From contig JACPHX010000009.1 in NCBI GenBank assembly GCA_016188425.1, forward strand, positions 3,582 through 67,581: DNA of 64,000 nucleotides, in the 5' to 3' direction. The first letter of the stretch is position 1; the number at the start of each line of letters is the position of its first letter. The notes beneath the pieces are model-generated. The model saw only the letters and a list, made by a program, of their open reading frames with translations, had not been told where the DNA came from and did no database searches. The translations under genes and the position numbers were made by a program. This stretch comes from Candidatus Uhrbacteria bacterium (GTDB lineage Bacteria > Patescibacteriota > Patescibacteriia > UBA9934 > GWF2-40-263). This document shows, in pieces, positions 26,747 through 61,725 of this stretch.

Positions 26747-29700
26747 TTACTTAGAATGCTTCTTTTTTCTTGTCAGCACATAGGCCGCTGCTCCCCCAGC
26801 GGCTGCCAGAATCAAGAGAACTATAGGCCAGACGGCTTTCGGTTCCTCTTTCGTTCCAAGTATCCGTTCGCGGATCGAGCCGGGCTTTGTTGGCGCTTTA
26901 GGCGGCATCTGCTGCGCCTGTGCCAATTCCAACGTTCTCCCTGTCGGGCGATTGAGGCGTGCTGGCGATGCTTTCTCCGTTGCCACGGCGATCTTTCTCG
27001 TGATCACCTCTTTCGTTTTGCGATCCGTGTTAAACACCTTGAGAGTAGAGGTGAGATCGAATGCTTGCGGGCTTCCTATATCCGCCACCTGGAAGAGAGC
27101 GACTTTTTCTTCATTCGCCACCACCTCCTGCACGCAAGAGTCTGTGGCGACCATTTCCCCTGCTTCATTTATGACCCCAAGGAGCTTGTACCCTTCCGGA
27201 ACCTGCGCACAGACATTTACGCTCCAGTTGCTATCCGAGGAGAAGATGAACGGATAGAAGTTCTGCGATTCAGTGTTATCCCACAGAAGGACATCCGCGA
27301 AGGTGATGTTCAGGTAACTGCCTTCAAACTCTTCCTCGGTGGAGGCATCCCACTGATGCTCGTGCGATTGATTATGCGGAGGTTTCTTGATGGTACGAAT
27401 CGCTCCGAGCTTCTTGGTGGCCAATGTTCCATCCGGGGTCGCGATGAAGTCGTCTGGATTCTTGTTCTTCCCTGTGAAAACCACTCTTCCGCTGGACTGG
27501 TCCACGTACTTGCCGATCACGAGATATCTTCCTGGAGCCGGTTCACCCACGAGACAGCTGCCGTCGGCGGATGTCGTACAGCTTCCCATCAGGCCGACCG
27601 CTCCGTCGAAGACTTCGTCGTACTTGCTCTTCTTGGGGCCGCTCGTGCCGTAAAGGGCTACGAAGTCGGCATCGTCGCGATTGAACACGCGGACAACCGC
27701 TCCTTCCAGAGGACCTTTGCAGCTCGCCTTGTCGCCCGGGCAGGCGCCTGTTTTGTGCGGATCGACCGTATGAAGCGACATCTCGATCTTATCCGCGGCA
27801 GGGCAGCCGAAGTAGGCGGCGCTTCCCGAGACGGCCGGGCATTGGTCTTCGGCGTTGGGAACGCCGTCCTCATCGTCGTCGCCGGCCAGCGGACACCCGT
27901 TGTTGGATGCCGGGCCGGGAACCGCGGGACATTGGTCGACGTCATCCAGGACTCCGTCGCCGTCGGTATCCGGAATCGGGCATCCATTGTTGGAGGCGGG
28001 ACCGGGGTAGGTTGGGCAGGCATCTACGTCGTCCAGGACTCCGTCGCCGTCGGTATCGGGGATCGGGCAGCCGTAGTTGGAGGCGGGTCCGGGAAGCGCG
28101 GGACATTGGTCGACATTATCGAGGACTCCGTCGCCATCGGTATCCGGGACTGGGCAGCCGTTGTACTCGATGACTCCGACAACGTTTGGACACTGATCGA
28201 CGTTATCGGTGATGCCATCGCCGTCGGTATCGGGGTACGGACACCCGTTGTTTGATGCCGGGCCGGGAACGGCGGGGCATTGGTCGACATCATCGGGAAC
28301 TCCGTCGCCATCCGTATCTGTTGGAACCACCTCCGGGCACCCGTTATTGGAGGCCGGCCCCGGCTCGGTAGGACATTGATCGAGATTGTCCGTAATTCCG
28401 TCGTTGTCCGTATCCGGGTACGGGCAGCCATAATTCGCGGCAGGGCCGGGAATCGATGGGCACTGATCAACGTCGTCGAGGACTCCGTCGTTGTCCGTAT
28501 CCGGGATAGGACAGCCGTTGTAGGCAGAGGAACCGGGAACGGTTGGACAAAGATCGACGTTATCGAGGACTCCGTCGCCATCAGTATCTGGCCATGGGCA
28601 GCCATTGTTGAGGGCGGGGCCAGGTTCGTTTACGCATTGGTCGACATCATCGAGGACTCCGTCGTTGTCCGTGTCTGGTATCGGGCAGCCGTTATTGGAG
28701 GCGGGGCCGGGAATGGTTGGGCACTGATCGACGTTGTCGTAGACACCGTCGCCGTCTGTATCCACGGGTGCCGCGGTTGGGCAGCCGTTGTTGGAGGCGG
28801 GGCCCGCTGTTTCCGGGCAATAATCGGCGCTCTCGAGGACTCCGTCGTTGTCGGTATCCGTGCCTGGCGGTTTGCCAAACCCGAATACAAGTCTTTGGCC
28901 GGGGATTATCGCGCGCGTCAGGGTTTCCCCCTGAAAGGTCATGGTCAAAGTGGAACCGACGAGATCCGTACTGAACAAACAATTTTCAGATGAAGTCACC
29001 CCCGATGACGTACTCGAGAAAAAAACGCTCGACGTATCTAGGTCGATCATGCTTCCTTGATTGACCACCGTGTTCGTCTCGTCTCTCACAGACCATGTTT
29101 CCGGCATAATCGCGGTTTCCGTATCCCCAGGTCCGGACTGCGTCACAGAGACCGGATAATGATTATTGCCGATGTTTGATATCTTTATTTCACCACTCTT
29201 CGGGCACAAAATGGCTGCCTGTTTTCCCATATCAGCACTCACCAAAAACGCCGAACCAGCCGTCATTTCCCATTCGCAAAGGTCGGTGACCCCGTTATTG
29301 AAGCAGGCACCGTTCCCCCACCCGGTCACACCAAAATTACATGAATAAGTTGTACTTACCTCTGGACAGAGCCCCCAAATTGTGGTCTCCATGCTTTCGT
29401 GTTCACAGTTTGAGCGAACTTTGAACTGACCCCCTGCCAATTCACCTGCAGTATAAGGAATGACTCCATCGTCAATAATAATAGCCATTTTGTAATAATC
29501 CAACACCGGCATGTCAACGTTTATTTCTGAAGTCACCCACGATTTAAATCCCTCCTCGTTGCTAGGACGGCCATTATCATCCGTGGTGGTTTCTCTTCTG
29601 ACGTAAGACGTCCTGGTAGGACAGATGGAATCCGGATATGTATTCGGAATTTCACAAAACGCATGCAGCTTCAATAATCCTTCCGTGACGGTCCCATTCA

Positions 29701-32700
29701 ATTCGAGAGGGGCTATGATCACAGAGGCAGAAGACGGTGGAAGCCGGCATCTGTCACAGACGGTATTGATCGTTTGGGTCGGTAAGCATTCGAGCCCGGG
29801 CGTGCAGCCCGGTGGACTCACTTCTCCCAATACGGCGCATGGCGCGCCTCGTCTACTGCTTACTATGCCATCTTCGTCACAGGAAAGAATGCCGGTGTCA
29901 CAATCTTCTCCCGGATCTACCACGCCGTTTCCGCACGTAAGCGCTAAAGCCGCTGATTGTGCCGATGCTGAATGTATGCCGAATATATCCCGTAGATAAC
30001 CAGCGATACGCCCCACCAGGTTTCCCGCAACATGCGGCGGTGATGCAGCGGATACAACCGGGATCCCCGTGTTCACCCAACCAGGATCCAATAGGCACGA
30101 AGAGCACCCGTCTCCGTCTGCCGCATTTCCATCATCGCATTCTTCTGGCAACTGCCAAAGATTATCCCCGCAGCTTGGAAGAATCGGCCGGCAAGAACCA
30201 TCGCACGAATCCGTCTCATCCAGATTTCCGTCGTCGCATAATTCCCCTGGTTCAACCATCCCGTTTCCGCACACAGGCGCGAATTCGCATGTCAAGCAAC
30301 GATCACAAGACGTAATACCGTATCCAGTACACACAAACGGCGGAGCAGAGGCGCGGCAGTTGCTCGCGCATCCGTCGTTATTCACAGGCAGACACAATCC
30401 GCTGCCTATTCCCGCACAGTCGCTATTTTGCGTGCACTCGCGGAGATCGGGAGCAGGGCATCGCATACCGTTGTCACACACTTCTCCAGGATCTTGGACA
30501 GCGTTTCCACACAATCGAACACAGGTATTCACCCCAAAACCAGCGCAAGCAAAACCTGATTCGATTTGACACAAGGGGGAACACCCGTCGCCTCCCTGCG
30601 TGTTTGCATCGTCACAGGATTCGGCTCCGTTCTGAACGCCGTTCCCGCAGTCTGCTGGAATTTCAATGGCGCATACGTTCGAGCACCCATCGTTGTTTTC
30701 GGTATTTCCATCGTCACACGTTTCTCCGCAACCAATGACGCCGTTTCCGCAGGTATCTGTCGGCACCGTCTGGCAACTCGCAGAACAACAAGCCGTTCCG
30801 TCATCGCATGTCTCCCCTGCTTCCACGATAAAGTTTCCGCACACGGCGCCTGCCTCCAGCGTGCAGACGGCGCTGCATCCGTCGCCGGACGTTCTGTTGC
30901 CGTCATCACAAAATTCCGTGGCATCTGTTATCCCATCCCCGCAAAGAACCGGCGTGACGGTGGACCCCAGGTTTACCAATCTCGCCTCCGAATACACCCC
31001 TTCCGAATTTCCTCCGGCCCACACAAAGCCGTTTGGAAGCTCCACCATGTCGTTGAGCGCGGCGGCGCCGGGCGTGACGTCGTATTCCCAATTTGATCCT
31101 CCGTCGGGGGAATGCATCATCGTCGAGGCGGCTCTCGCGTACAAATTCACCCCATCCGCCGTCGCCACCTCAAAGAGGGGTTCGTTAGGTATCGAGGCAT
31201 TGATAAGCACGGTCTGCGACGCGCCGAACTTGACCGCTTTGCCGTTTCCGTTTCCGTCATTTCCAACAAGGAAAAAGTCCGTGAACCCTGGACCGAACTC
31301 TTCTTTTTGGAACACGTCTGTGTAGACGGAAGCGTCTGAACCGTTTCCGAGCAAGAATCGTTCCGAAGAGAACGCGCCCAGCGACGTCGGGGTGACGAGG
31401 AACAACGACGGGCCTTCGCTTGTGCGCGCCGTAAACAAGCACTGGAAGTTATTGTTACAGGTAATATCCGAATCGATGACGCAGGAATTCAGGGCGGTGC
31501 AATCCGAAATGGACACTGGCGTATCGAATGTGGTTCCGAAAAGAATATCCGACGACCAGCTCAAAGTTCGCGCGGTAGCATCGAGCTTCACGCCCATCCC
31601 CCCCCACTCATCGATGCTGATATCCGAAGTGAATGTTCCTGCTTGCGGTTGGTCTTCCCAGGCGCCAGGCGCTCCATATCCGCCTTGGAACGCCTGTCCT
31701 GGATTCCGCCAGAGAAGATTGTTTGCATCAACGGCCAAAACCTGTTCGTCTCCGAAATCCGCAAAGATCTTTTTGATTTCCGGTCCTCCGAAGGAAAGCG
31801 TCCATGACGCCCCTCCGTTTGCGGTTCGAACCATGCTTGTCCCGCCGGGCGTCATCGGTTCTCCGCCCGCCAGACACGTCAGCGCGTCTTTACAGACGAT
31901 CGCGTTGATTTTCTTCAACCCCGTATTGCTGAACGCGGTGTAATTTGATACGGGAATTTGGACGGATGTATACAGGACGTCACCCATCACAAACGGCGAA
32001 GAAGCGGGGCGCGCCGCCACCGCGACCGCGCCGCCGAAGAAGGTCGTCTTCGTCCATGTTGAACCTCCGTCGGTTGTTTGATACACCCCGTCGGAGGCGG
32101 AGAGATATCCTGTATTTGCATCCGCGAAACTCAACGTGGTGATGTCAGTGGGACTTCCTGGCAAGAACGCTTCAAACCAATTCTCCCCGGCGTCAGTCGT
32201 CTGGAAGAGTTTCCCCACAGAGTTCACCGACCCGATAATAAACCCGCTGTTCGCCGTTACCATTTTCAAATCATTGACCTTGAAGAACCCGGCGGAGGAG
32301 GGCAGAATTTCCGTCGATGTCCATCGCGGGGGGGCATTGATCACAGGAACCAAGCAAACCTGCCCTACCAATGAGCTCACGACGTGTGCTGGATTCGTCG
32401 TCCCGGAAGCGTAGTAATTCGTATCCGGGTTGTTGGCAAACTGATAATCCGCCTCAACCTGGCAGGTGTCGGAGCAGCCGTCGCCGCTGGCGGTATTGCC
32501 ATCGTCGCACGCTTCCGTGTTCACGACGTATCCGTCGCCGCAAACCGCCGCCTCGAACAAGCACAGGGAGGAGCAGCCGTCGCCGTCTCGGCCCTTGCAA
32601 TATCCGCCGGCCGTTGCGCAATCTCCATCAGAGCCGCAGGCGGTAGTGTTGTCTCCGGTGCACACGCCGCCGTCATCACATTCTTCCGACAGGTAACTGA

Positions 32701-34174
32701 TGGCTCCGTCGCCGCATCCTACGCGGGCGCCATCGATGACGAACGCGCATGTTCCGCCGTTGGGGCAATAATCGTAGCCACCATCCGGGACATAACAGAC
32801 CGAATCAGGAAAATCTCCGCCGACGCATTTTCCAGCTTCTAACTGGCAATGGCTGGAGCAGCCGTCGCCATCCGTCTGGTTGCCGTCATCGCATGCCTCG
32901 TAGCCGTCTCCGGATACCGCGCCGTCCCCGCACAGGCCGTTCTCTACCACGGAACCACGACGGACGTATCCCGCCTTGAGGGTGCAGTTATCGGAACAAT
33001 AGGCGGACGGATCCTCTACCACAACGCATTGCTCGGTTGGCGCTGCCATCGGACAATCTGCATCGGAGGCACATGCCTGTCCGGCATTCAGCCCCGCATC
33101 GCACAGCGAAACATCATGGTCGTAGACACACTGTTCGCCGCTGGTGCCGCAAAAATCTCCAGATTCATTCGTACAATCCATCCCCGCATTCGCTCCTGAA
33201 TCGCATAGATAGATTTCATCCTGGAAACAATTGGCGGTGGCCGGGCTTGCGCAATCGGCATCTGTCGTACATGTTCCCCCCGCATTCGATCCTGAATCGC
33301 ACTCCTTTACCGCCGCCGTCGGATCGCACTGTTCGCCAGAAAAGAACGTGTAAAAACCGTCTCCGCAAAACCGGCCGCACGAGGCCGCGGAGCCACCGGA
33401 ATCGCATCCGCCGCCAATCCCATCTTGCCCATCGCACTCTTCGCCATATTCAATCAGACCGTTGCCGCAGGTTGCGTTGTCGCACGATCCCCGTATGTCG
33501 TCTGTCAAATAAACGTTCGTATTGAAATTGCCCGTTTCACGGGCGACGACCACCGCTTTTTTGTCATCGATAAGGTCTATCTGCGATGGATCCGAACATC
33601 CCGGCTGCTCGCAGACAGAACCCTTATTGTAATAATGCGCTCCACCGTCGGACGTATAGGAAATCCGATCTCCGCTTAGCACGGCGCCGACGCTCTCATC
33701 AAAAAAAGCCAAATCCGTCGCGTTGGACGGCGCACTTACCTCGGCATCAAACGCCTCGTTCCCGTTGTTGGCTCCCGTGCCATTTATCTGAACCCACGCT
33801 CCCGAAAGGTCTTTTTTCGCCACGCCGTTTTGCGTGAGAGCCACCACCGACGAGGTCGTATCCGTCCGCTCAATGCTTATTACAAAATCTCCCGCGATCG
33901 AATCGTCCACCCAGCTCGCGCCCCCATCAACCGTCTTTGCCACGGATCCGAAATCCCCTTTCAGGTAACAGGTTTGATCCGAACTGCACGTAATCTGTTC
34001 GACGTCGGTGAGCAAATAGTCCGCACTCACCGGCTGCCAGTAGTTCGTCGCGAAGCTTTTTATCGAGTACCTATACACGTACGAGGCGGTTGCAGCCACC
34101 CCCACCAAAACCGCGACCATGGATAGGAACACGATGGGCTTTGAAAGCGTTTTCTTTTTCATAAGTAGAAACAT
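26747..34174 (-). CDS. Giant (2475 aa) anchored extracellular protein with Cys-rich repeats, BNR/Asp-box repeats, about 13 thrombospondin type-3 repeats and a C-terminal TM anchor
   Basis: N-terminal signal anchor [26 protein letters not shown]. Multiple CGDG…EECDDGN…GDGCS..C..E units (Myxococcus cysteine-rich-repeat type). TxDGGxxW BNR motifs. [29 protein letters not shown] repeated 13 times. A carboxypeptidase-regulatory-like segment. C-terminus [30 protein letters not shown], a TM helix plus basic tail with no LPXTG. Confidence 0.85.
27790..28900. repeat. Tandem array of about 81-nt DNA repeats (13 units) encoding the TSP3 calcium-binding repeats
   Basis: Near-identical units such as gggacattggtcgacgtcatccaggactccgtcgccgtcggtatccggaatcgggcatccattgttggaggcgggaccggg recur throughout. 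All three alternative frames on both strands also yield repetitive ORFs in the track. Confidence 0.85.
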
Positions 34175-53229: not shown

Positions 53230-56200
53230 CTAGAGGCCGAAAATCGTCTCTATCTGCGCCCGAAGCTGCGGGCCGTTCTGCGATCCTTGGATCATGCCGA
53301 CAAGGCGGTGATCCGCATCGAGGAAGTAGAATTGCGGCAAGCTCATCACGCGATACGCATCGTAGAAATCGTCGCCGACCTTGTAGACCGGGAGCGAATA
53401 GGAGCCGCGGCGCACCTGGGACCAGCTGACATTGATAGGATCCAGGGTGCTGACGGGCAACAGGACGATGTCCGGGTACTGGTCGATCAGGTCTGCGAAC
53501 GCCGTCATCTGCTCCATGGAGAGCGTATTCCAGGCGCTGTAGGCCATCACGACGGATCTCTTGCCGGCGGCCGCGCTATACAGCGAGCGCGTCTCGCGGT
53601 CCACGGATGTCAAAGAAATATCGGGCATCTGCGTTCCAAGAGGAATCGCGACTTGCGATTCTGCGGCCGCCACATTGAGCGCGAAGTTGTCCGGCGCCTG
53701 GATCAGGCCGAAACGGGAGAACAGGTTGTGCCAGAATCCTTGATTTGATTCCATGACGATATCTGCCGTCACGACGCTTCGAGTCGGTATCGTGGTGATC
53801 GAAGAGGTGATGGTGCGGTGGCCAGCATGGGAAACCTCCAGATAGAACTCTCCGGGAGGAAGCACGAGCGAGAAATTCCCGCTGACAAGGAAAGGATTCA
53901 TTTGTCCGTAGGATGCCCCGTTCCAGATGTCGAATGAACCGTCGTTCCCGCGCTCATACGCCGTCACGGTCACATCGGAAATGAATTCCTTCGTCTGTTC
54001 ATCCGAAATGGTTCCGTCGGTAATAACCAGGACGCCGTTGATCGGCCGCTGGTAATCCCGGACGCCGTTTGAGAAGCTCGCGGTGAGCTCATGCATTCCG
54101 GTTTCTTCGAAGGAGATGTCTCCGACCCATAGGTGCAGGTCGCGGTCGAAGGTGAGGGGGAACTCCCGCCGTTCGGAGGCGCCGATAATCATGGCCTCCG
54201 TCGCTCCAGGTGTCCCCTCCAAGAAAATCGTCCCGCCTTCCCCCTCCTGCAGATGAACCGTCCCATCGCCATCCAGCGGAGAAGCCTGCGCACCCAGCGT
54301 CGTAATTTCGTTTGCCCCTATGATAAGGCCGGCATCAAGGGTGAAAGGACAAGCACTGGAAGTGGTAATCGTCCCATCGATATCAACCGCGCGGACGAGC
54401 GCCGAGTAGAAGCCGGAGGGGATCGTTGTGAAGGTCAGGTTGTATCCTCCCGCGTCGGTGCCAAGACCGAAGACGGTTGGAACAGGGATCCAGCTTAACC
54501 CGCCGTTGAGCGAATAATCGACGGTGGAAATATTGCCTGCCGACGCGTTCACAAACCCTCCGATCGTGATAGGCAAGGCGTCATACACCGTAAAACACCC
54601 GAAGGTCCAGTCGATCGCGGTGGGGGTTGGGGGCGGTGGCGGTTCCGGGGCTGCAAGGAAAGCGAACGGAACGATCAGAGGTTCAATCGGCGGCTGTTCT
54701 GGTATGGGCGGGGGTGGGGGCTGTTCTCCTCCTCCGCCTCCTCCTCCGCCTCCTCCGCCTCCTCCTCCTCCGCCATCACCTCCGCCTCCGCCTCCTCGGC
54801 GCCGTACTTGAATGGTGACGGTGGCCGTATCGCAGAGATCATTGGTATCGCAGATTTGGTAGACAAAGGTGTCATCGCCGACAAAGCCGTTGTTTGGCGT
54901 GTAGGTAATCACTCCGGTCTCTTCATCGATAGCGGTAATCGTGCCGTTGCCGGGAGGGGTGATAATCGTGATGGAACCAAGAACCAATTCCCCATCGACT
55001 CCCTCATCGTTCGCCGGCACATCTATATCGACCGGCGTATTGCGATTCGTGACGGCCGAATCGTCGTTGGCCACCGGAGGAGCAAGCTCTCCGACGGTGA
55101 TCGTCACCACCGCGGTGTCGCACAGCCCGTCATCGTCGCACACTTCGTAGGTAAACGTGTCGGTGCCGGTGAACCCTTCTCCCGGCGTATAGGTCGCGAC
55201 GCCCGTTTCCGGATCGATGGTTACCTCTCCGTTGGTGGGAGGATCCGTGACCGTCACGGTCGAAGGGACAAGGAGCCCGTCAAGATCCGAGTCGTTCTCC
55301 AAAAGATCGATCTCGACGGGGACGTCGACGGTGGTGCTTGCTCCGTCATCGCCCGCGATGGGCGGAGCGAGGACGGTAATGGTCACCAAGGCCTGGTCGC
55401 ACAAATCGGTGGTATCGCAGACCTCGTAGACAAAGGTGTCTACGCCGTAGAATCCTTCATCCGGCGTGTAGGTGACGGCGCCTGTTTCCGGATCGACTGA
55501 TACTTCCCCGTCGGTGGGTGGCGTCACGATCGCTACCGAGGCCGGGTCGAGATTCCCGTCTTCATCGGTGTCATTGTCCAAGATGTCGATCACCACCTGG
55601 GTATCCATGGTGGTCGTGGCTGCATCGTCGTTGGCAACCGGCGGATTTTCTTCCGGCGTAAACACGCAGTCCTCCGGCGTGATCTCTTCATCGCCATTCA
55701 AATCCGTAATCGGGATGATGTCTCCCTCGTGGTTGCCGTGGTCGTTGTTTCCTTCCCCGTCAACCGCGCTCGCGTCAACCGTCAGCACGGTGAAGGGGTT
55801 GTTTTCTGATCCGGTGGCGTGACAAATGGTGACCTGGTCATCGCCCCCCAGGACGAGAATCGTTACCTCCGCGGTATCGCATAGGGTATCGGTATCGCAA
55901 ATCTGGTAGACAAAGGAATCGGAGCCGATGAAATCCACATCCGGATCATAGGTAATTTCCCCGGAGACGGGGTTGATGCTGACGATGGACCCGTTGCTCG
56001 GCGGCGTGATGATGGTGACAGATGCAAGATCCAGGTTTCCATCGGGATCCGTGTCGTTCTCCGGCACGTCAACCGCCACCGGCTGGTTCACCATGGTGAA
56101 GGTCGAGTCATCGACGGCGACCGGCGGCTGGTTCTCTTCGGGCGGGATATAGACACAATCGTCCTCATCGACCACCTCGTCGCCATTCAAATCGGCAATA

Positions 56201-57972
56201 GGGATAATATCCCCCTCATGGTTGCCGTGGTCGTTGTTTCCTATGCCATCCACCGCGCTCGCGTCAACGGTGAGCACGGTGTAGGGATTTTGTTCCGAGC
56301 CGGTGGCGTGACAAATGGTCACGTTGTCCTCGCCTCCAAGAACCAGAATCGAGACTTCGGCCGTATCACAGAGGGAATCCGTGTCGCAAATCTGGTAGAC
56401 GAATGCGTCGGAGCCGATAAAGTCCGTGTCTGGCGTATAGGTGGCCTCACCTGTTTCTGGGTTCACTGATACCCCTCCATTGGAGGGAGGGGTGATAATC
56501 GTGACGGATGCCAAATCCAAATTCCCGTCAAAATCCGTATCGTTGCCTGGAACGTCGATATCGACGGGGGTATTCACGAAACTAAACGCTGCATTGTCGA
56601 CGGCATCGGGCGGTTGGTTCCCCTGGGGCGGAACGTAGACGCAGTCGTCCGCATCGATATTTTCATCGCCGTCCAAATCTGTAATGGGAATAATGTCCCC
56701 TTCGTGGTTGGCGTGGTCGTTGTTGCCTTCGCCATCCACCGCGCTTGCGTCAACGGTAATGACGGTGTACGGGTTGCTTTGGGATCCGGTCGCGTGGCAA
56801 ATAGTCACTTTGTCATCCGATCCCAATACATCGATGGTAACGGTCGCCGTGTCACAGGCGCCGTCTTGGTCGCACACCTCATAGGTAAAGGAATCAGATC
56901 CCACAAAATCCGCGGCCGGGGCATAGGTAATTTCCCCCGTGGCTTCATTGATATTCGTAATGATGCCGTTGGTGGGAGGAACCGTAATGGCTACCGAACC
57001 GGCATCCAGCTCCCCTTCCGGATCCACGTCGTTGTCAAGGATATCGATGACGACCGGCGTATTGACCGCCGTAGCAGCCGCGTCGTCATTGGCAGTTGGC
57101 GGCAGGTTCTCATCCGGAACATAGGTGCAATCTTCCTCGGTAATGTCTCCGTCGCCATTGGCATCGCCAATCGGAATGATGTCCCCAAAGGCATGCTGCT
57201 CGTCGACGATATGCTGGGTATGGTCGTTGTTCCCCTCGCCGTCGACCGCATCCGCATCAACTGTTATGACGACGTACGGATTCGCGTCGGAGTTCGTCCG
57301 ATGGCAGATGGTTACCTGGGGGTCTTCCTCTTGGTGGTTGGCAGCGACCAAAAACGATTGGGTTGCCAAGGCATCGAAACGGCTGGTCTGCACCCGCGTT
57401 TCCTGCGCCGTTTGCTGGGTAATCCGTCCTTTAGACAGCATGGCGATGGATGTCAGCGTTGGAATGCTTCGCGGTCCGCTGGTAAGGGACAGGCGCAGCT
57501 TGATGCTGTCGCTGGCAAGCGGGAGGCTGCCGATATGCGCATTGACTTCCTCTACTTTATTCCAGCAAGTGGAACAATTGTTTGCTTGCGTCCACTTCAG
57601 CCCGTCGTACCAGTACCAATAGGTAAAGTCTGAGGTCAGCTGGTACCCGATGGATGACCCGGCTCCCACAGAGGCCTGTTGGGCAAACCCGACGAGCGAT
57701 GCTTCTTCCGGCAGCCGGAGGTCTTCTAAGTAGACGACCTCTTCTGTGGCGTTATTGCGAACCGGGCGCACACCATCGCTGTCCATGACGACGCTCGTTA
57801 CATCGTAGGAGAAATGGCTTGGCTCGGTTGTTTTGACGGTAAAGGCACGCGCCCCTATCTCGCTGCCGCTGCGCGTTAAGAGGAAGACGGAGATGCCCAG
57901 CACCGCAAGGAACCCCGCCAGGAGCTTGAGGCCAGCGCCCCCTTGCGATTTTCGTGGAGAATATGACGTCAT
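53230..57972 (-). CDS. Giant (1580 aa) surface protein: four [Cys/His module + cadherin-like/VCBS-type beta-sandwich] units, two extra cadherin-like domains, a poly-Gly/poly-Pro linker and a C-terminal Cys-less thioredoxin-fold domain
   Basis: N-terminal signal anchor. VTICHATGSxxNPYTV.TVDASAVDGEGNNDH.NHEGDIIPI modules repeat 4 times. Cadherin-like units A.DD…NTPV.IDVL.ND.D.DG.L…GSDSFVY.VCDT…CDTA.VTI repeat 6 times. Then G22…P5…P5 and a C-terminus …SLPQFYFLDADHRLVGMIQG. Confidence 0.85.
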   Translation of the reverse strand: MTSYSPRKSQGGAGLKLLAGFLAVLGISVFLLTRSGSEIGARAFTVKTTEPSHFSYDVTSVVMDSDGVRPVRNNATEEVVYLEDLRLPEEASLVGFAQQASVGAGSSIGYQLTSDFTYWYWYDGLKWTQANNCSTCWNKVEEVNAHIGSLPLASDSIKLRLSLTSGPRSIPTLTSIAMLSKGRITQQTAQETRVQTSRFDALATQSFLVAANHQEEDPQVTICHRTNSDANPYVVITVDADAVDGEGNNDHTQHIVDEQHAFGDIIPIGDANGDGDITEEDCTYVPDENLPPTANDDAAATAVNTPVVIDILDNDVDPEGELDAGSVAITVPPTNGIITNINEATGEITYAPAADFVGSDSFTYEVCDQDGACDTATVTIDVLGSDDKVTICHATGSQSNPYTVITVDASAVDGEGNNDHANHEGDIIPITDLDGDENIDADDCVYVPPQGNQPPDAVDNAAFSFVNTPVDIDVPGNDTDFDGNLDLASVTIITPPSNGGVSVNPETGEATYTPDTDFIGSDAFVYQICDTDSLCDTAEVSILVLGGEDNVTICHATGSEQNPYTVLTVDASAVDGIGNNDHGNHEGDIIPIADLNGDEVVDEDDCVYIPPEENQPPVAVDDSTFTMVNQPVAVDVPENDTDPDGNLDLASVTIITPPSNGSIVSINPVSGEITYDPDVDFIGSDSFVYQICDTDTLCDTAEVTILVLGGDDQVTICHATGSENNPFTVLTVDASAVDGEGNNDHGNHEGDIIPITDLNGDEEITPEDCVFTPEENPPVANDDAATTTMDTQVVIDILDNDTDEDGNLDPASVAIVTPPTDGEVSVDPETGAVTYTPDEGFYGVDTFVYEVCDTTDLCDQALVTITVLAPPIAGDDGASTTVDVPVEIDLLENDSDLDGLLVPSTVTVTDPPTNGEVTIDPETGVATYTPGEGFTGTDTFTYEVCDDDGLCDTAVVTITVGELAPPVANDDSAVTNRNTPVDIDVPANDEGVDGELVLGSITIITPPGNGTITAIDEETGVITYTPNNGFVGDDTFVYQICDTNDLCDTATVTIQVRRRGGGGGGDGGGGGGGGGGGGGGGGEQPPPPPIPEQPPIEPLIVPFAFLAAPEPPPPPTPTAIDWTFGCFTVYDALPITIGGFVNASAGNISTVDYSLNGGLSWIPVPTVFGLGTDAGGYNLTFTTIPSGFYSALVRAVDIDGTITTSSACPFTLDAGLIIGANEITTLGAQASPLDGDGTVHLQEGEGGTIFLEGTPGATEAMIIGASERREFPLTFDRDLHLWVGDISFEETGMHELTASFSNGVRDYQRPINGVLVITDGTISDEQTKEFISDVTVTAYERGNDGSFDIWNGASYGQMNPFLVSGNFSLVLPPGEFYLEVSHAGHRTITSSITTIPTRSVVTADIVMESNQGFWHNLFSRFGLIQAPDNFALNVAAAESQVAIPLGTQMPDISLTSVDRETRSLYSAAAGKRSVVMAYSAWNTLSMEQMTAFADLIDQYPDIVLLPVSTLDPINVSWSQVRRGSYSLPVYKVGDDFYDAYRVMSLPQFYFLDADHRLVGMIQGSQNGPQLRAQIETIFGL

Positions 57973-57984
57973 AGGTGGTGGGGA

Positions 57985-59328
57985 TCAGGAAGGCATTTTA
58001 CGGAAGTTGCGAATGGCCGAGTACCCCACGAAGGACACCAGAAGAGAGATGAGGGTCAGGATGATGAAGGTTGAAAGAAGCTGCTGGCGGGTCTGTTCGA
58101 ACAAGACGGTGGTTGGAGACCCGACGGAAACCATGCCGATGATTTTGCCATTGATATCGCGCAACGGCACGAACGCGCTGTAATAAAGCGTTCCGAGCCG
58201 ATCAAGACTCGTGCTTAAAACCTCTCCTTTTGCCAAGGTGGTTTCCAAGACGCGCAAATCCGTTTCCTGGCTTCCGACCCAACGAGAGACGCCGTCGGTC
58301 GTGGTAATGGTCGTTGCCGATCGTCGATCGTCGGTGTAAATGGTGGTTTCAAGCCCGGTTGCCTTTTTGGAGAAGTCCACGAAGGCCGTGTCGAACTTGT
58401 ATCCGACTTCAACCGCCCCCACCGCATTCGTCCCCGAGAGAATCGGGGCAAACGCGTGCGTGACCACCAAGGGCGAAAGCACGCCCGCTTCCTTGTCGAA
58501 CGACTTGATGTGTTTCTTTTCCTTCAAAACGTAGGTCACAAGCGGATCGACGTTTGCCACGCGCCCGCGATCGCGGATATCGGAGGGAGAGACGATGATT
58601 TCGCCGTAGGAATTGTAGATTTTGAGGATATCCACGCCAGAACTTAAAAAGAAATCGCTCATGAGCTGATCCAGCACCTTCACCTGGCCTCCTTTGAAGG
58701 CCTCGAGGAAACGGCTGTCATTGGCAATCGTACGCGCCAGGATGAGAGAGGTGTTCTCGCGATCGAGCATCACCACTTGCTGGGTCTCGGACCCTTGCTC
58801 CATCAGCCGCAAGTTATTGCTTTCGACAATGCGGAAGACCAGCATGGAAAAAATGAACGAACCGAGCGTGGAGACAACGATGGCGATAGTGAGGAAGACG
58901 ACATAGGTACGCAGGAAGGGACGAAGTTTGATGAAGTTCCATGCCCAGATCGCCAGGAAGAGAAACCCGATGAAACTAAATAAGACCCCCCACTGCCAGG
59001 CCGGGCTGAATCCAAGCGACTGTTCGCGCAAGGGAACGAGGGAGAGAGCGGGAAGGCGGGAAACGATCAAACTGATGCTGTAGCCCAGCAAAGAGAGATA
59101 TCCGAGCATCGGCCAAAGGTTTTGGCGCTTGGAAGCCGGATTGTCGCGCTGGCTGCGATAGCGTCGGATCTGGATGCGGATCGTGGCAAGGATGAAGAGG
59201 GTCGACATGCCCGCGAGGATGGAAGGGACGAACCCCTTGGCACTGGGCCAGGCAATGACGAGGACCGCGGCGAGGAGGGCGTAGATGGTGATCTCCAGCC
59301 CGGAAAAAGAGCGTGATTCTTTTTGCAT
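57985..59328 (-). CDS. Membrane protein with an extracytoplasmic double-Cache-like sensor domain and no recognisable output domain
   Basis: About 5 N-terminal TM helices. A 250-aa extracellular region has Cache-like modules (…LSPLVVTHAFAPILSGTNAVGAVEVGY…; …LYYSAFVPLRDINGKIIGMVSVGSP…). A final TM helix follows, then the stop. Confidence 0.6.
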   Translation of the reverse strand: MQKESRSFSGLEITIYALLAAVLVIAWPSAKGFVPSILAGMSTLFILATIRIQIRRYRSQRDNPASKRQNLWPMLGYLSLLGYSISLIVSRLPALSLVPLREQSLGFSPAWQWGVLFSFIGFLFLAIWAWNFIKLRPFLRTYVVFLTIAIVVSTLGSFIFSMLVFRIVESNNLRLMEQGSETQQVVMLDRENTSLILARTIANDSRFLEAFKGGQVKVLDQLMSDFFLSSGVDILKIYNSYGEIIVSPSDIRDRGRVANVDPLVTYVLKEKKHIKSFDKEAGVLSPLVVTHAFAPILSGTNAVGAVEVGYKFDTAFVDFSKKATGLETTIYTDDRRSATTITTTDGVSRWVGSQETDLRVLETTLAKGEVLSTSLDRLGTLYYSAFVPLRDINGKIIGMVSVGSPTTVLFEQTRQQLLSTFIILTLISLLVSFVGYSAIRNFRKMPS

Positions 59329-59698: not shown

Positions 59699-61585
59699 TT
59701 ATTTTTCCGCGCGGAGCTTTACGTTTTTCGCAAACGTCTGCGCTTCTTTCGCCGCTTTGAGGTCCGCCTCCAGCCGCTCTTCCTTGTAGCCGTCCTTCTG
59801 ATAGGAGATCGAGTAGCAATTGGGGCCCAGGAGGAAGAAGTAGCGCCCCAGGGAGTCGGTGAGCGTGGTCTCCAGCACTTTGTTGTACTCCGTCTCAAAT
59901 ATGCGCACGACGGCGCGATCGATCGTTTGTCCGGAAGCCGCATCGCTCACGCGCCCCCAGTTCTTGGGCTTCTTCAGATGCGCCAAACGCCGCGCGAGCA
60001 TGAGGGCGACGAGCTGAAGCGCCAAGAGGCCGAAGGAGACGGCATCCGGACGCAATATGGCCACGCCGATCGCAAGCACGATACCGATGTAGGTAAGCAA
60101 AAACTCGAATTTCCTTAGGAGACGGCGGAACAGAATGGATGTAGGCTTGTGATAATTTTCATCCTGCGTCGGGTCCACGGGAATATTGGCGGCAATGGTC
60201 GTCCCCTTTGCCGGCACGCTCACGGCGCCACCGACGTAGATCGAGGAGAATTCGCCGTCCGCCTTTTTTCCTTTGAGGATGTTTGAGGGGAATGTGAATG
60301 GCGGTTTCATCACCTGCATGGTGTAGCGCCCCGGGAGGACGAGGAAGAAATATTTTCCGTCGCGCCCCGTGACGCGCGTTTGCGCCAGGCGTCCGTCTTC
60401 TTTAAACAGGCGAACGGTGGCGAGTTCGATGGGCAGCTTGCTGATCGCGTTATAAACCATGCCGATCCCCGTTGCTTTGCGCTTGCGGAGAAAACCGAAC
60501 GGGACTCCAAGCAGATAGCGGACGTACTTGATGAGGTCGAAGTACCGAAGCAGGATGATGAGACTCAAAATCGACGCAAGGAGTATCGTCCCTTTGGATG
60601 CCGCGACGATCGTGTCCCCTACCCCGGAAGCGAGCGCGTTTTTCAAAAAGCCCACCACGGATTCTCCCGTGAGCGAATCCATGAAGTTCGCCCAGCTCTC
60701 CAGGGTGGAGGAGGCGCCGGCGGGAAGCAAGGGGGGGGGAGGCGGGATGGAGGGTGGAGGGGAGGAGGGAGGAAGTGGGAGGGAGGAGGGCAACGAAGGG
60801 GAAGAAGGAGGGGGAGCGGAGGGGGAGGGGGCGGGAGGGGGCGGAGAGGAGGGGGCGGGAACGGGAGCGGGAACGGGGATTCCTGCGGTCGCAAAAGAAC
60901 TTTCGTAGCTCGCGCTATTTCCCCACTCATCCGCCGAGGTAGCCTTGTAGTAATACGTTGTGCCTGGATCCAGCCCGGACAGGTTTACGACATGGTTGGT
61001 ATCCGTCACGGCCGCAAGCTGCCACGAGGCCGTCGCGGCCTTCACCCCCCTCCCGCCTCCCATCCCGACGCTTCCATAGGCCCGGGTCGTGCCGTAATCA
61101 ACCCGCGTCGTGGCCGGTTCATCGGTGGTCCAATGGATGGTCGCGGAGCTCTGCGTCACGCTCCCGGCCTGCACATCGAAGAGCTTCGGCGCCACGGCAT
61201 CCGCCGTTTCGAATACTTTCGTCGCGACCGCCGTTTGCTGGCACGCATCGTAAACGGTCGCTTTGAGATAGATGAGGGTATCCTCCGGAAGATTCGTCAG
61301 AGAAAAAGAAAATCTCGTCGTGGGGTTCTCCTCTGACTCCATCCCGAGTTCATACCGCGTGGAAGTGCCGACCGCGAGCGTGGCTGTGGCGGACACGTTC
61401 GTCCGGAACGAAACCTGCGCGCTGTCGAGCGTGACTCCGGATACGCTGAAGGAGGAAATCGCCGGCGGATCTGGGCACGGATTCGTCCGTGGAGTGTCAT
61501 TGTCCGGCGGCGGAGCCACGAATGATTGGGCGCGAACAAACATCGGCTGCAGAAGGAAAAGAACGGCGCATAGGTACGCAAACAT
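59699..61585 (-). CDS. Membrane/surface protein with two Fn3-like (PAP-N-terminal-like) domains, a Pro/Ser-rich linker and two CarboxypepD_reg-like domains
   Basis: Start at ATG 61585 (signal peptide MFAYLCAVLFLLQPMFVRAQS). The track start is 61651. TIHWTTDEPATTRVDYGTTRAYG Fn3-like blocks. Linker PVPAPVPAPSSPPPPAPSPSAPPPSSPSLP…. …GRDGKYFFLVLPGRYT… and …SLGRYFFLLGPNCYSI… CarboxypepD_reg-like blocks, separated by TM helices. Confidence 0.6.
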   Translation of the reverse strand: MFAYLCAVLFLLQPMFVRAQSFVAPPPDNDTPRTNPCPDPPAISSFSVSGVTLDSAQVSFRTNVSATATLAVGTSTRYELGMESEENPTTRFSFSLTNLPEDTLIYLKATVYDACQQTAVATKVFETADAVAPKLFDVQAGSVTQSSATIHWTTDEPATTRVDYGTTRAYGSVGMGGGRGVKAATASWQLAAVTDTNHVVNLSGLDPGTTYYYKATSADEWGNSASYESSFATAGIPVPAPVPAPSSPPPPAPSPSAPPPSSPSLPSSLPLPPSSPPPSIPPPPPLLPAGASSTLESWANFMDSLTGESVVGFLKNALASGVGDTIVAASKGTILLASILSLIILLRYFDLIKYVRYLLGVPFGFLRKRKATGIGMVYNAISKLPIELATVRLFKEDGRLAQTRVTGRDGKYFFLVLPGRYTMQVMKPPFTFPSNILKGKKADGEFSSIYVGGAVSVPAKGTTIAANIPVDPTQDENYHKPTSILFRRLLRKFEFLLTYIGIVLAIGVAILRPDAVSFGLLALQLVALMLARRLAHLKKPKNWGRVSDAASGQTIDRAVVRIFETEYNKVLETTLTDSLGRYFFLLGPNCYSISYQKDGYKEERLEADLKAAKEAQTFAKNVKLRAEK

Positions 61586-61725
61586 TCTGAATAAACGTGA
61601 CGCCGGCTGACTCGCCAAAACCGATGGCTCCTCCATAGATAGATGGATCATGAGATGATGAGCTGACTATTGATGACAGTTTACCAACAATACGAGTCTG
61701 CGAAAAGAAACCGATTCGCCGCCTG

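What the first reader, a model, noticed from the sequence alone, without database searches (positions are those of the whole stretch)
54880..57370. Novel ~55-aa Cys/His module (VTICHATGS…GNNDH.NHEGDIIPI) alternating with cadherin-like domains in a 1580-aa surface protein
- Four times in succession, a cadherin-like/VCBS-type beta-sandwich domain is preceded by a highly conserved module: VTICHATGSxxNPYTV(I/L)TVDASAVDGEGNNDHxNHEGDIIPIxDLxGDExxDxxDCVY.
- The module has invariant Cys, several His and Asp/Asn-rich loops. It looks like a metal (Ca or Zn)-binding or disulfide-bonded insert, but I cannot assign it to a known domain.
- Periodic insertion of a small conserved module between every adhesin repeat is unusual. 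It may define a new repeat class.
Basis: seen in the sequence. Interest (0 to 1): 0.6.

Follow-up and report, generated by a model that had tools for sequence, protein, structure and literature searches.

The report
Unannotated Cys/His mini-domain in surface proteins
The repeated ~60-residue Cys/His module is real. It is an independently folding small domain found in over a thousand surface proteins of CPR bacteria, Actinomycetota and Chloroflexota, and no domain or structure library available here describes it.

Summary
**Observation:** confirmed. The 1580-aa minus-strand gene (53230..57972) of a Candidatus Uhrbacteria MAG carries four copies of a 62-69-aa module. Each copy precedes a Big_9/tandem-95 (cadherin-like) domain, and two further Big_9 domains follow without a module.

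**Not part of the Big domain:**
- No Pfam or NCBIfam match at E<=10.
- No profile-profile similarity to the Big_9 repeats (probability 0.8%).
- Most carriers lack Big_9: 70 of 74 scanned. They include ~100-aa secreted proteins, tandem module-only arrays and sortase-linked actinobacterial proteins that RefSeq calls "hypothetical protein".

**Family size and core:** an exhaustive HMM search found 1,779 cluster representatives (50% identity). The core is KVTICHxTGSxxNPYVxITV...H..H..DIIP...C. The Cys pair, three His and one Asp are nearly invariant.

**Structure:** AlphaFold2 with a 150-sequence alignment gives a confident model (pLDDT 92.9) of a beta-hairpin plus short helices. Foldseek finds no PDB neighbour, and the profile finds no PDB sequence.

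**Window subtype:** it adds a DGEGNNDH insert and a DxDxDG (EF-hand/dockerin-like) loop before the closing Cys. Among 80 genome loci this subtype was seen only in three CPR loci.

**Best reading (inferred):** an extracytoplasmic mini-domain stapled by a disulfide, with a His3/Asp metal site and, in this subtype, a Ca2+ loop. Function is untested.

The parts
53230..57972 (-). Gene for the 1580-aa N-terminally anchored surface protein (Candidatus Uhrbacteria MAG). Order of parts: TM/signal aa 15-32; conserved N-terminal domain aa ~40-215; 4 x [module + Big_9]; 2 x Big_9; Gly/Pro linker; mid domain; CarboxypepD_reg; Trx-like domain.
57109..57318 (-). Module copy 1 (aa 219-288), with a 7-aa insert. 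Key residues C223, H224, H251, H254, D264, C282. DxDxDG loop DANGDGDITEED at aa 270-281.
56623..56811 (-). Module copy 2 (aa 388-450). Key residues C392, H393, H420, H423, D426, C444. Loop DLDGDENIDADD at aa 432-443. aa 385-451 (this copy plus 3 residues upstream and 1 downstream) is the stretch modelled by AlphaFold2 (pLDDT 92.9).
56137..56325 (-). Module copy 3 (aa 550-612). Key residues C554, H555, H582, H585, D588, C606. Loop DLNGDEVVDEDD at aa 594-605.
55648..55836 (-). Module copy 4 (aa 713-775). Key residues C717, H718, H745, H748, D751, C769. Loop DLNGDEEITPED at aa 757-768.
56824..57108 (-). Big_9 / tandem-95 (cadherin-like) domain 1 (aa 289-383)
56338..56622 (-). Big_9 / tandem-95 domain 2 (aa 451-545)
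55852..56136 (-). Big_9 / tandem-95 domain 3 (aa 613-707)
55369..55647 (-). Big_9 / tandem-95 domain 4 (aa 776-868)
54805..55368 (-). Big_9 / tandem-95 domains 5 and 6 (aa 869-960 and 964-1056), not preceded by a module

Best explanation
The module is an autonomous small extracytoplasmic protein domain. The core is about 44 aa and the window version is 62-69 aa. It belongs to a large family absent from every library searched here, found in surface proteins of Patescibacteria (CPR), Actinomycetota and Chloroflexota.

**Shown:**
- The module recurs in many architectures.
- It folds confidently on its own into a beta-hairpin (KVTICHAT / YxVITV) followed by short helical turns.
- It is unrelated to the Big_9 domain that follows it.

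**Inferred mechanism:**
- The two near-invariant cysteines (C392 and C444 in copy 2) form a disulfide. This ties the C-terminal tail back onto the hairpin.
- The near-invariant His next to the first Cys (H393), the H-x-x-H pair (H420, H423) and the Asp of 'GDIIP' (D426) form a transition-metal site, with Zn2+, Cu2+ or Ni2+ as candidates.
- In the window's subtype, the 12-residue loop D-x-[DN]-G-D-x-x-[IV]-x-x-x-D just before the closing Cys binds Ca2+ in the manner of an EF-hand/dockerin DxDxDG loop.

**Inferred role:**
- In the Uhrbacteria protein, the result would be a rigid, metal-stabilised joint between successive Big_9 beta-sandwiches of an N-terminally anchored stalk.
- In the small actinobacterial proteins, the modules are the only globular part, displayed on a Pro/Thr-rich stalk. 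There they would be the functional (metal- or ligand-binding) head.
For: **Four copies.** 36 of 62 columns are invariant.

**No known family.**
- Pfam and NCBIfam give nothing at E<=10 for the four copies.
- No family covers the module in 74 carriers.
- RefSeq names six cultured-strain carriers 'hypothetical protein'.
- Two motif searches of the literature were empty.

**Family size.** 1,779 representatives at E<=1e-3, with 1-6 copies per protein.

**Independence from Big_9.**
- Only 4 of 74 carriers have Big_9.
- Back-to-back module arrays exist (P0018), as do single-module small proteins (P0043, P0001-P0014).
- hhalign against Big_9 gives probability 0.8%.

**Fold.**
- The AlphaFold2 model has pLDDT 92.9 and pTM 0.77, with strands at model residues 4-10 and 18-24 and helices at 25-28 and 57-60.
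- Foldseek finds nothing below E = 6 in the PDB.
- The broad profile finds no PDB sequence.

**Conservation.**
- H36, H39 and D42 (model numbering) are 98-99% conserved in 150 diverse instances.
- With anchors that do not use Cys (NP[YFW] plus HxxH..D), 142 of 143 instances have C-H at -8/-7 and 142 of 143 have a downstream Cys.
- No Cys/His interchange is seen.

**Extracytoplasmic setting.**
- The window protein has an N-terminal hydrophobic segment.
- 126 of 164 carriers have an N-terminal hydrophobic stretch and 37 of 164 have an LPxTG-like C-terminus.
- Sortase is the commonest neighbour family, 10 of 100 neighbour ORFs.
- The adjacent Big_9 domains carry their own conserved Cys pair.

**Ca loop.**
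- The best PDB sequence matches are dockerin and EF-hand loops, but weak: E = 0.05.
- Asp or Asn sits at loop positions 1, 3, 5 and 12 in all four copies.
- The predicted helix starts at loop position 10, as in EF-hands (the EF-hand geometry is from established knowledge).

**Selection.** Modules M2-M4 are 76-79% identical, against 57-76% for the flanking Big_9 domains.
Against: - No coordinates of the model could be inspected. The Cys-Cys distance and the His/Asp geometry were not measured, so the disulfide and the metal site rest on conservation and context only.
- The dockerin/EF-hand match is not significant (E = 0.05).
- In copies 2-4, loop position 6 is Glu rather than the canonical Gly.
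- The neighbour census shows no metal-homeostasis genes.
- Libraries not available here (InterPro/CDD beyond Pfam and NCBIfam, CATH, SCOP) might describe the module.
Confidence: 0.55

Rival explanations
1. The module is only the N-terminal strand set or extension of an extended cadherin-like/Big_9 domain.
For: In the window it always sits directly before a Big_9 domain. The same [module + Big_9] unit recurs in relatives P0017, P0020, P0024, P0027 and P0029.
Against: - Big_9 domains 5 and 6 lack it.
- 70 of 74 carriers have no Big_9.
- Module-only tandem arrays and ~100-aa single-module proteins exist.
- The module folds confidently alone.
- hhalign probability is 0.8%.
Confidence: 0.02
2. A Cys2His2-type zinc site: the two Cys and two of the His chelate one Zn2+, as in a zinc-finger-like knuckle, with no disulfide.
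For: C, H, H, H and C are near-invariant, with the spacing C-x27-H-x2-H-x20-C. Small domains of this size are often held together by Zn (established knowledge).
Against: - The proteins are secreted or wall-anchored, where Cys pairs are usually oxidised.
- No Cys/His interchange is seen at any ligand position, unlike many zinc-finger families.
- C and H are adjacent within a strand, so their side chains should point to opposite faces. This last point is inference.
Confidence: 0.15
3. A purely structural disulfide-stapled spacer with no metal site. The conserved His and Asp only make hydrogen bonds or salt bridges, and the module merely lengthens or stiffens surface stalks.
For: - The module is interspersed with stalk-type domains (Big_9, DUF11, SpaA-like) and with Pro/Thr linkers.
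- No metal-related neighbours were found.
Against: - Three His plus one Asp at 98-100% conservation across phyla is unusual for a passive spacer.
- In many actinobacterial proteins the modules are the only folded part of the mature protein, which argues for a function of their own.
Confidence: 0.23
4. A reactive Cys-His module, with a catalytic dyad or a covalent cross-link or adduct former, analogous in principle to the thioester or isopeptide domains of Gram-positive surface proteins.
For: An invariant adjacent Cys-His is present in sortase-associated surface proteins.
Against: - The core is only ~44 aa.
- There is no Gln/Lys/Asn partner motif of thioester or isopeptide domains and no similarity to them.
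- A second invariant Cys is better explained by a disulfide.
Confidence: 0.05

Closest known systems
DxDxDG calcium-binding loops of dockerin type I modules and EF-hands (Pfam Dockerin_1, EF-hand)
   Same: - The last 12 residues before the closing Cys read D-x-[DN]-G-D-x-x-[IV]-x-x-x-D.
- A predicted helix starts at loop position 10.
- Dockerins and calcium-binding proteins are the top PDB sequence matches.
   Different: - The match is weak (E = 0.05) and covers about 20 residues only.
- There is a single loop rather than a pair, with no entering helix.
- Glu replaces Gly at loop position 6 in copies 2-4.
- The loop is absent from most family members, which have 'IPAPxGGCP' or a longer actinobacterial insert.
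- No Pfam Dockerin or EF-hand hit at E<=10.
Thrombospondin type 3 repeats (Pfam TSP_3 / TSP3_bac)
   Same: Both use Asp-rich Ca2+-type loops combined with a nearby Cys in extracellular proteins. One small family member carries a precomputed TSP_3 hit (P0256).
   Different: - TSP3 repeats have no beta-hairpin core, no C-H / H-x-x-H / D-I-I-P signature, and they wrap around Ca without a hydrophobic core (established knowledge).
- The window modules have no Pfam TSP_3 hit.
Big_9 (PF17963) / tandem-95 repeat (NF012211) / Cadherin_5 bacterial cadherin-like domains
   Same: It is the physical neighbour in this protein. It is also extracellular, also has a Cys pair and an NDxDxDG-like loop.
   Different: - Big_9 is a ~95-aa beta-sandwich.
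- There is no profile similarity (hhalign probability 0.8%).
- The module occurs mostly without it.
Small Cys/His zinc-binding modules (zinc ribbons and knuckles)
   Same: Similar size, and a near-invariant set of Cys and His built on a beta-hairpin.
   Different: - The setting is extracytoplasmic.
- The Cys and His lie inside a strand rather than in a knuckle turn.
- There is no CxxC or CPxC.
- Foldseek finds no zinc-finger neighbour.

Membership tests
Big_9 / Cadherin_5 / tandem-95 repeat (extended Big domain) | Match to the family HMM (PF17963, PF17892, NF012211), or profile similarity to bona fide repeats | tested here: not met
   The four modules scanned alone give no Pfam or NCBIfam hit at E<=10. 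hhalign of module profile A3 against the six Big_9 repeats of the same protein gives probability 0.8%.
Big_9 / Cadherin_5 / tandem-95 repeat (extended Big domain) | Obligate co-occurrence with the Big domain, as an integral strand set would require | tested here: not met
   Only 4 of 74 full-length carriers have Big_9. Big_9 domains 5 and 6 of the window protein lack the module.
Dockerin type I / EF-hand | 12-residue DxDxDG-type loop with acidic or amide residues at positions 1, 3, 5 and 12 and a hydrophobic residue at position 8 | tested here: met
   All four copies qualify: DANGDGDITEED, DLDGDENIDADD, DLNGDEVVDEDD, DLNGDEEITPED. Position 6 is Gly only in copy 1.
Dockerin type I / EF-hand | Significant match to the family model or to solved members; paired loops flanked by helices | tested here: not met
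   No Pfam hit at E<=10. The best PDB match is a dockerin at E = 0.05. There is one loop per module, and the model shows no entering helix.
Dockerin type I / EF-hand | Ca2+ binding | not testable with these tools
   This needs coordinates with ions, or experiment (ITC, Ca-dependent thermal shift).
Any Pfam-A (2025) or NCBIfam (release 20) family | HMM match covering the module in the window copies or in diverse family members | tested here: not met
   the most frequent family in 74 carriers matches only 4 of them, and none covers the module. Precomputed Pfam is '-' for 121 of 122 hit rows for small family members (two proteins appear in both lists).
Any protein of known structure (PDB) | Sequence-profile or fold similarity to a solved chain | tested here: not met
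Cys2His2-type zinc finger | Tetrahedral Zn site formed by the conserved Cys and His | not testable with these tools
Conservation alone cannot separate a disulfide plus His site from a C2H2 site.

The most novel reading that the evidence does not exclude
The module is a new fold and a new class of extracytoplasmic His3/Asp metal-binding mini-domain. Ultra-small CPR bacteria (Uhrbacteria, Saccharibacteria, Falkowbacteria, Buchananbacteria) share it with the Actinomycetota and Chloroflexota. Displayed on cell surfaces, it would capture metals or mediate metal-dependent cell-cell contact. Because Saccharibacteria live as epibionts on Actinomycetota (established knowledge), the shared module could take part in epibiont-host attachment.
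Probability: 0.12. Interest if true: 0.8.

Novelty: new variant of a known kind. Interest (0 to 1): 0.5.

Why it matters
- **A gap in domain libraries.** A compact domain with a strongly conserved C/H/H/H/D/C signature is present in at least 1,779 protein clusters across three large lineages, yet Pfam, NCBIfam and the PDB do not cover it. RefSeq therefore labels even cultured Arthrobacter and Pseudarthrobacter carriers 'hypothetical protein'.
- **Annotation gain.** Defining the family would annotate thousands of surface proteins. These include giant CPR proteins that are candidates for host contact.
- **Experimental tractability.** At 45-65 residues the module suits NMR, crystallography and metal-binding studies.
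- **If the metal site is confirmed.** It would add a new small extracellular metal-binding fold.
- **If it is not confirmed.** The module still defines a new building block of monoderm surface proteins.

Tried and rejected
1. Single-sequence AlphaFold2 of a module-Big_9-module stretch failed (pLDDT 33.6). It used one of the two structure jobs.
It was repeated with the four window copies.
4. An exact look-up of the 1580-aa protein in the assembly index and the cluster collection found nothing, probably because the annotated start differs.
5. Two literature searches with motif strings returned only irrelevant word matches.
6. Rfam found nothing in the window.
7. I took the ORF next to the Arthrobacter sp. 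92 carrier (L014:6721-7566) for a sortase by eye. Pfam gave no hit at E<=1e-3, so I dropped that claim. The sortase association rests on the census only.
8. In alignment A3, the invariance of C8, H9 and C60 follows partly from how I extracted instances with a regex. I re-tested it with Cys-independent anchors.
9. The neighbour census gave no hint of a metal-homeostasis context.
Full report
**1. What is in the window**

The finding lies in one long minus-strand ORF, window 53230..57972, which encodes 1580 aa.

- Neighbouring proteins are identical to entries of a Candidatus Uhrbacteria (Patescibacteria/CPR) MAG contig of 78,961 bp. They are MsrA (MBI2551151) and a cache-domain protein (MBI2551153).
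- The protein starts with a hydrophobic segment at aa 15-32.
- Pfam finds six Big_9 / Cadherin_5 / Cadherin_4 domains, a CarboxypepD_reg domain and a weak AhpC-TSA match at the C-terminus.
- NCBIfam calls the repeats tandem-95 repeats.

'VTICH' occurs four times. The module boundaries are M1 aa 219-288, M2 388-450, M3 550-612 and M4 713-775, which correspond to window 57109-57318, 56623-56811, 56137-56325 and 55648-55836. Each module is followed by a Big_9 domain. Big_9 domains 5 and 6 (aa 869-1056) follow without a module.

The four copies share 36 invariant columns of 62, and copy 1 has a 7-residue insert.
- The module is 62-69 aa long, not ~55 aa.
- It does not precede every repeat.

**2. 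It is not part of the Big domain and not a known family**

- The four modules alone give no Pfam or NCBIfam hit even at E<=10. The one listed hit, TIGR04056 at E = 0.18, is noise.
- A profile of the module against the six Big_9 repeats of the same protein gives hhalign probability 0.8%. It aligns only 14 columns of Asp-rich loop.
- A profile search of PDB sequences with the four copies finds only weak dockerin and EF-hand loop matches, best E = 0.05.
- The broad family profile finds nothing in the PDB at E<=10.

**3. It is a large family with many architectures**

An exhaustive hmmsearch of 1.84 billion cluster representatives found 1,779 proteins at E<=1e-3, 287 at E<=1e-10 and 14 at E<=1e-30. 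They carry one to six matched stretches per protein and range from 108 to 2795 aa among the 150 listed. The word-indexed search found additional small proteins of ~54-137 aa, nearly all named 'hypothetical protein' and without Pfam domains.

Reading the instances gives this core:

K-V-T-[IL]-C-H-x-T-G-S-x-x-N-P-[YF]-V-x-I-T-V ... (G)H-x-x-H-x-(G)D-I-I-P ... C

Three subtypes can be told apart:
- **Minimal form:** Cys-to-Cys about 38 residues, ending 'IPAPxGGCP'.
- **Long actinobacterial form:** contains 'IPPFxxxGxxYxGxNWDxxGQAIxxNGC'.
- **Window's form:** has a 'DGEGNNDH' insert and 'IPITDxNGDGxIDxxDC'.

A Pfam census of 74 full-length carriers shows that no family covers the module. The commonest families (Big_9, DUF11, PD40, DUF4215 and others) each occur in only 4 of 74. 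The NCBIfam census gives the same picture. The module also occurs in two forms that lack any other domain:
- back-to-back arrays with nothing between the copies (P0018, five copies at aa 343-614);
- a single copy in a 171-aa protein (P0043).

It usually does.

**4. Where it occurs**

A scan of one genome per species found 215 confirmed loci. I tallied the record titles of the 80 loci kept:

| Group | Loci |
|---|---|
| Actinomycetota (Arthrobacter, Pseudarthrobacter, Knoellia, Agromyces, Sinomonas, Acidimicrobiia and others) | 49 |
| Chloroflexota | 17 |
| CPR (Saccharibacteria, Falkowbacteria, Buchananbacteria, Curtissbacteria) | 11 |
| Dormibacterota | 1 |
| Methylomirabilota | 1 |
| Unclassified | 1 |

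- The DxDxDG-loop subtype was found by regex only in the three CPR loci L001-L003.
- Six carriers from cultured strains are named 'hypothetical protein' in RefSeq and UniRef.
- Carriers look extracytoplasmic. 126 of 164 have an N-terminal hydrophobic stretch and 37 of 164 have an LPxTG-like C-terminus.
- Sortase is the most frequent family among immediate neighbours, 10 of 100 ORFs.
- Typical Arthrobacter carriers consist of a signal peptide, 1-3 modules, a Pro/Thr-rich stalk, and then a sorting-like signal with a TM segment and a basic tail. In these proteins the modules are the only folded part of the mature protein.

**5. Conservation**

In 150 diverse instances at <72% identity, H36, H39 and D42 (model numbering, equal to H420, H423 and D426 of the protein) are 98-99% conserved. 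T11, P17, P45 and G30 are also strongly conserved.

In that alignment, the invariance of C8, H9 and C60 is partly built in by my extraction regex. I therefore re-tested it with anchors that do not use Cys (NP[YFW] plus a downstream HxxH..D):
- 142 of 143 instances have C-H at -8/-7.
- 142 of 143 have a downstream Cys.

There is no Cys/His interchange at any of these positions.

Within the window protein, modules 2-4 are 76-79% identical in protein and 77-78% in DNA. The adjacent Big_9 domains are 57-76% identical. The copies are therefore not recent duplicates, and the module is at least as constrained as the domain it accompanies.

**6. Structure**

- A single-sequence prediction failed (pLDDT 33.6).
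- With the 150-sequence alignment, AlphaFold2 gives a confident model of aa 385-451 (copy 2 with its flanking residues): pLDDT 92.9, pTM 0.77, and all five models at 88.8 or above.
- The model has strands at residues 4-10 (KVTICHA) and 18-24 (YTVITVD), and short helices at 25-28 and 57-60.
- Foldseek finds nothing in the PDB (best E = 6.0) or in BFVD (best E = 2.9).
- Coordinates could not be read, so no distances were measured.

**7. Most likely mechanism (inference)**

- The proteins are exported, and the neighbouring Big_9 domains have their own conserved Cys pair. The two module cysteines therefore most likely form a disulfide that ties the C-terminal tail to the hairpin.
- In a regular hairpin, adjacent residues point to opposite faces. 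C392 and H393 should therefore sit on different faces. H393 would lie on the face carrying the conserved hydrophobic residues (V, I / I, V), which must pack against the H-x-x-H-x-x-D-I-I-P segment.
- This places three His and one Asp together, a typical Zn/Cu/Ni-type site.
- The window subtype adds a 12-residue loop with Asp or Asn at positions 1, 3, 5 and 12 and Ile or Val at position 8. The predicted helix begins at loop position 10, as in EF-hands and dockerins (established knowledge; DxDxDG motif as recalled from Rigden and Galperin 2004).
- I therefore read the window's modules as disulfide-, metal- and Ca2+-stabilised rigid joints between the Big_9 sandwiches of a long stalk. I read the family as a small surface-displayed metal- or ligand-binding domain.

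Rivals are:
- a C2H2-like Zn site without a disulfide;
- a passive spacer without metal;
- a reactive Cys-His module;
- the 'extension of Big_9' idea, which is now refuted.

**8. The protein family around it**

BLASTP of the non-repeat parts shows a conserved family of giant proteins: P0015, P0017, P0020, P0024, P0027, P0123 and P0135. They share:
- the N-terminal domain (aa ~40-215);
- a middle domain (aa ~1100-1315);
- the CarboxypepD_reg domain;
- the C-terminal thioredoxin-like domain.

P0123 has the same length, 1651 aa, as the carrier ORF of the Buchananbacteria locus L003. The middle of these proteins varies. The same module subtype is followed either by Big_9 or by Cys-rich acidic repeats (DUF4215 / myxo_disulf_rpt).

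**9. Novelty and score**

- The module is a real, widespread, strongly constrained domain. Pfam-A (2025 copy), NCBIfam 20, PDB sequences and PDB folds (Foldseek) do not cover it, and motif-string searches of the literature find no description of it.
- It is a new family within a familiar kind of object: small stabilised modules of bacterial surface proteins, here with an embedded and well-known type of Ca loop. Its function is untested.
- I rate it 'new variant of a known kind', interest 0.5.
- It would rate higher if the His3/Asp site and a new fold are confirmed, or if the sharing between CPR and Actinomycetota turns out to relate to epibiont-host contact.

Noticed in passing
window 53233-53685 (-), aa ~1430-1580 of the 1580-aa protein: The C-terminal thioredoxin-like (AhpC-TSA / ResA-like) domain has the WCxxC active site of ResA replaced by W-N-T-[LS]-x-x-E-Q. 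The same WNT..EQ motif is conserved in seven related giant proteins (P0015, P0017, P0020, P0024, P0027, P0123, P0135). It therefore looks like a conserved redox-inactive Trx fold at the tip of the protein.
   Followed up: partly
window 57985-59328 (-); also L001:343-2016 and L003:1800-3587: A membrane protein with a dCache_3/sCache_3 sensory domain ends 12 nt upstream of the giant surface-protein gene on the same strand. A Cache_3 protein is also the upstream neighbour of the module-bearing gene in a Saccharibacteria locus and a Buchananbacteria locus. This suggests a conserved gene pair in CPR.
   Followed up: partly
window 57328-57855 (-), aa ~40-215; and window ~54028-54675 (-), aa ~1100-1315: Two further conserved regions of the giant protein have no Pfam or NCBIfam match but are shared at 26-41% identity with 8-11 other large module-bearing proteins. 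They are additional uncharacterised domains of this CPR surface-protein family.
   Followed up: partly
window ~54673-54804 (-), aa 1057-1100: After the last Big_9 domain comes a run of about 24 Gly (RRRGGGGGGDGGGG...), followed by a Pro-rich stretch (EQPPPPPIPEQPPIEP). It is a very flexible or low-complexity linker.
   Followed up: no
L015, L024, L028, L029, L034, L052, L061, L073 (Arthrobacter / Pseudarthrobacter carriers): The small actinobacterial module proteins end in N-x-G-F-[ND]-[AV]-Q-T-A, followed by a TM segment and a basic tail, rather than in a canonical LPxTG. This may be a non-canonical sorting signal. The ORF next to the Arthrobacter sp. 92 carrier (L014:6721-7566) has no Pfam Sortase hit at E<=1e-3.
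   Followed up: partly
window 59699-61651 (-): A second predicted surface protein of 650 aa has Pur_ac_phosph_N (Fn3-like), SdrD_B and two CarboxypepD_reg stretches, plus a long Pro/Ser-rich segment. Together with the Cache protein and the giant protein it forms a same-strand cluster of envelope genes.
   Followed up: no
window 26747-34174 (-): Another very long ORF of 2475 aa lies in the same window. It was not examined.
   Followed up: no
window Big_9 domains (for example 56338-56622, -): Each Big_9/tandem-95 repeat carries an invariant C-D-x4-C-D pair and an N-D-x-D-x-[DE]-G-x-L loop. The stalk domains themselves thus also look disulfide- and Ca-stabilised. The only hhalign match to the module is this loop.
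   Followed up: partly
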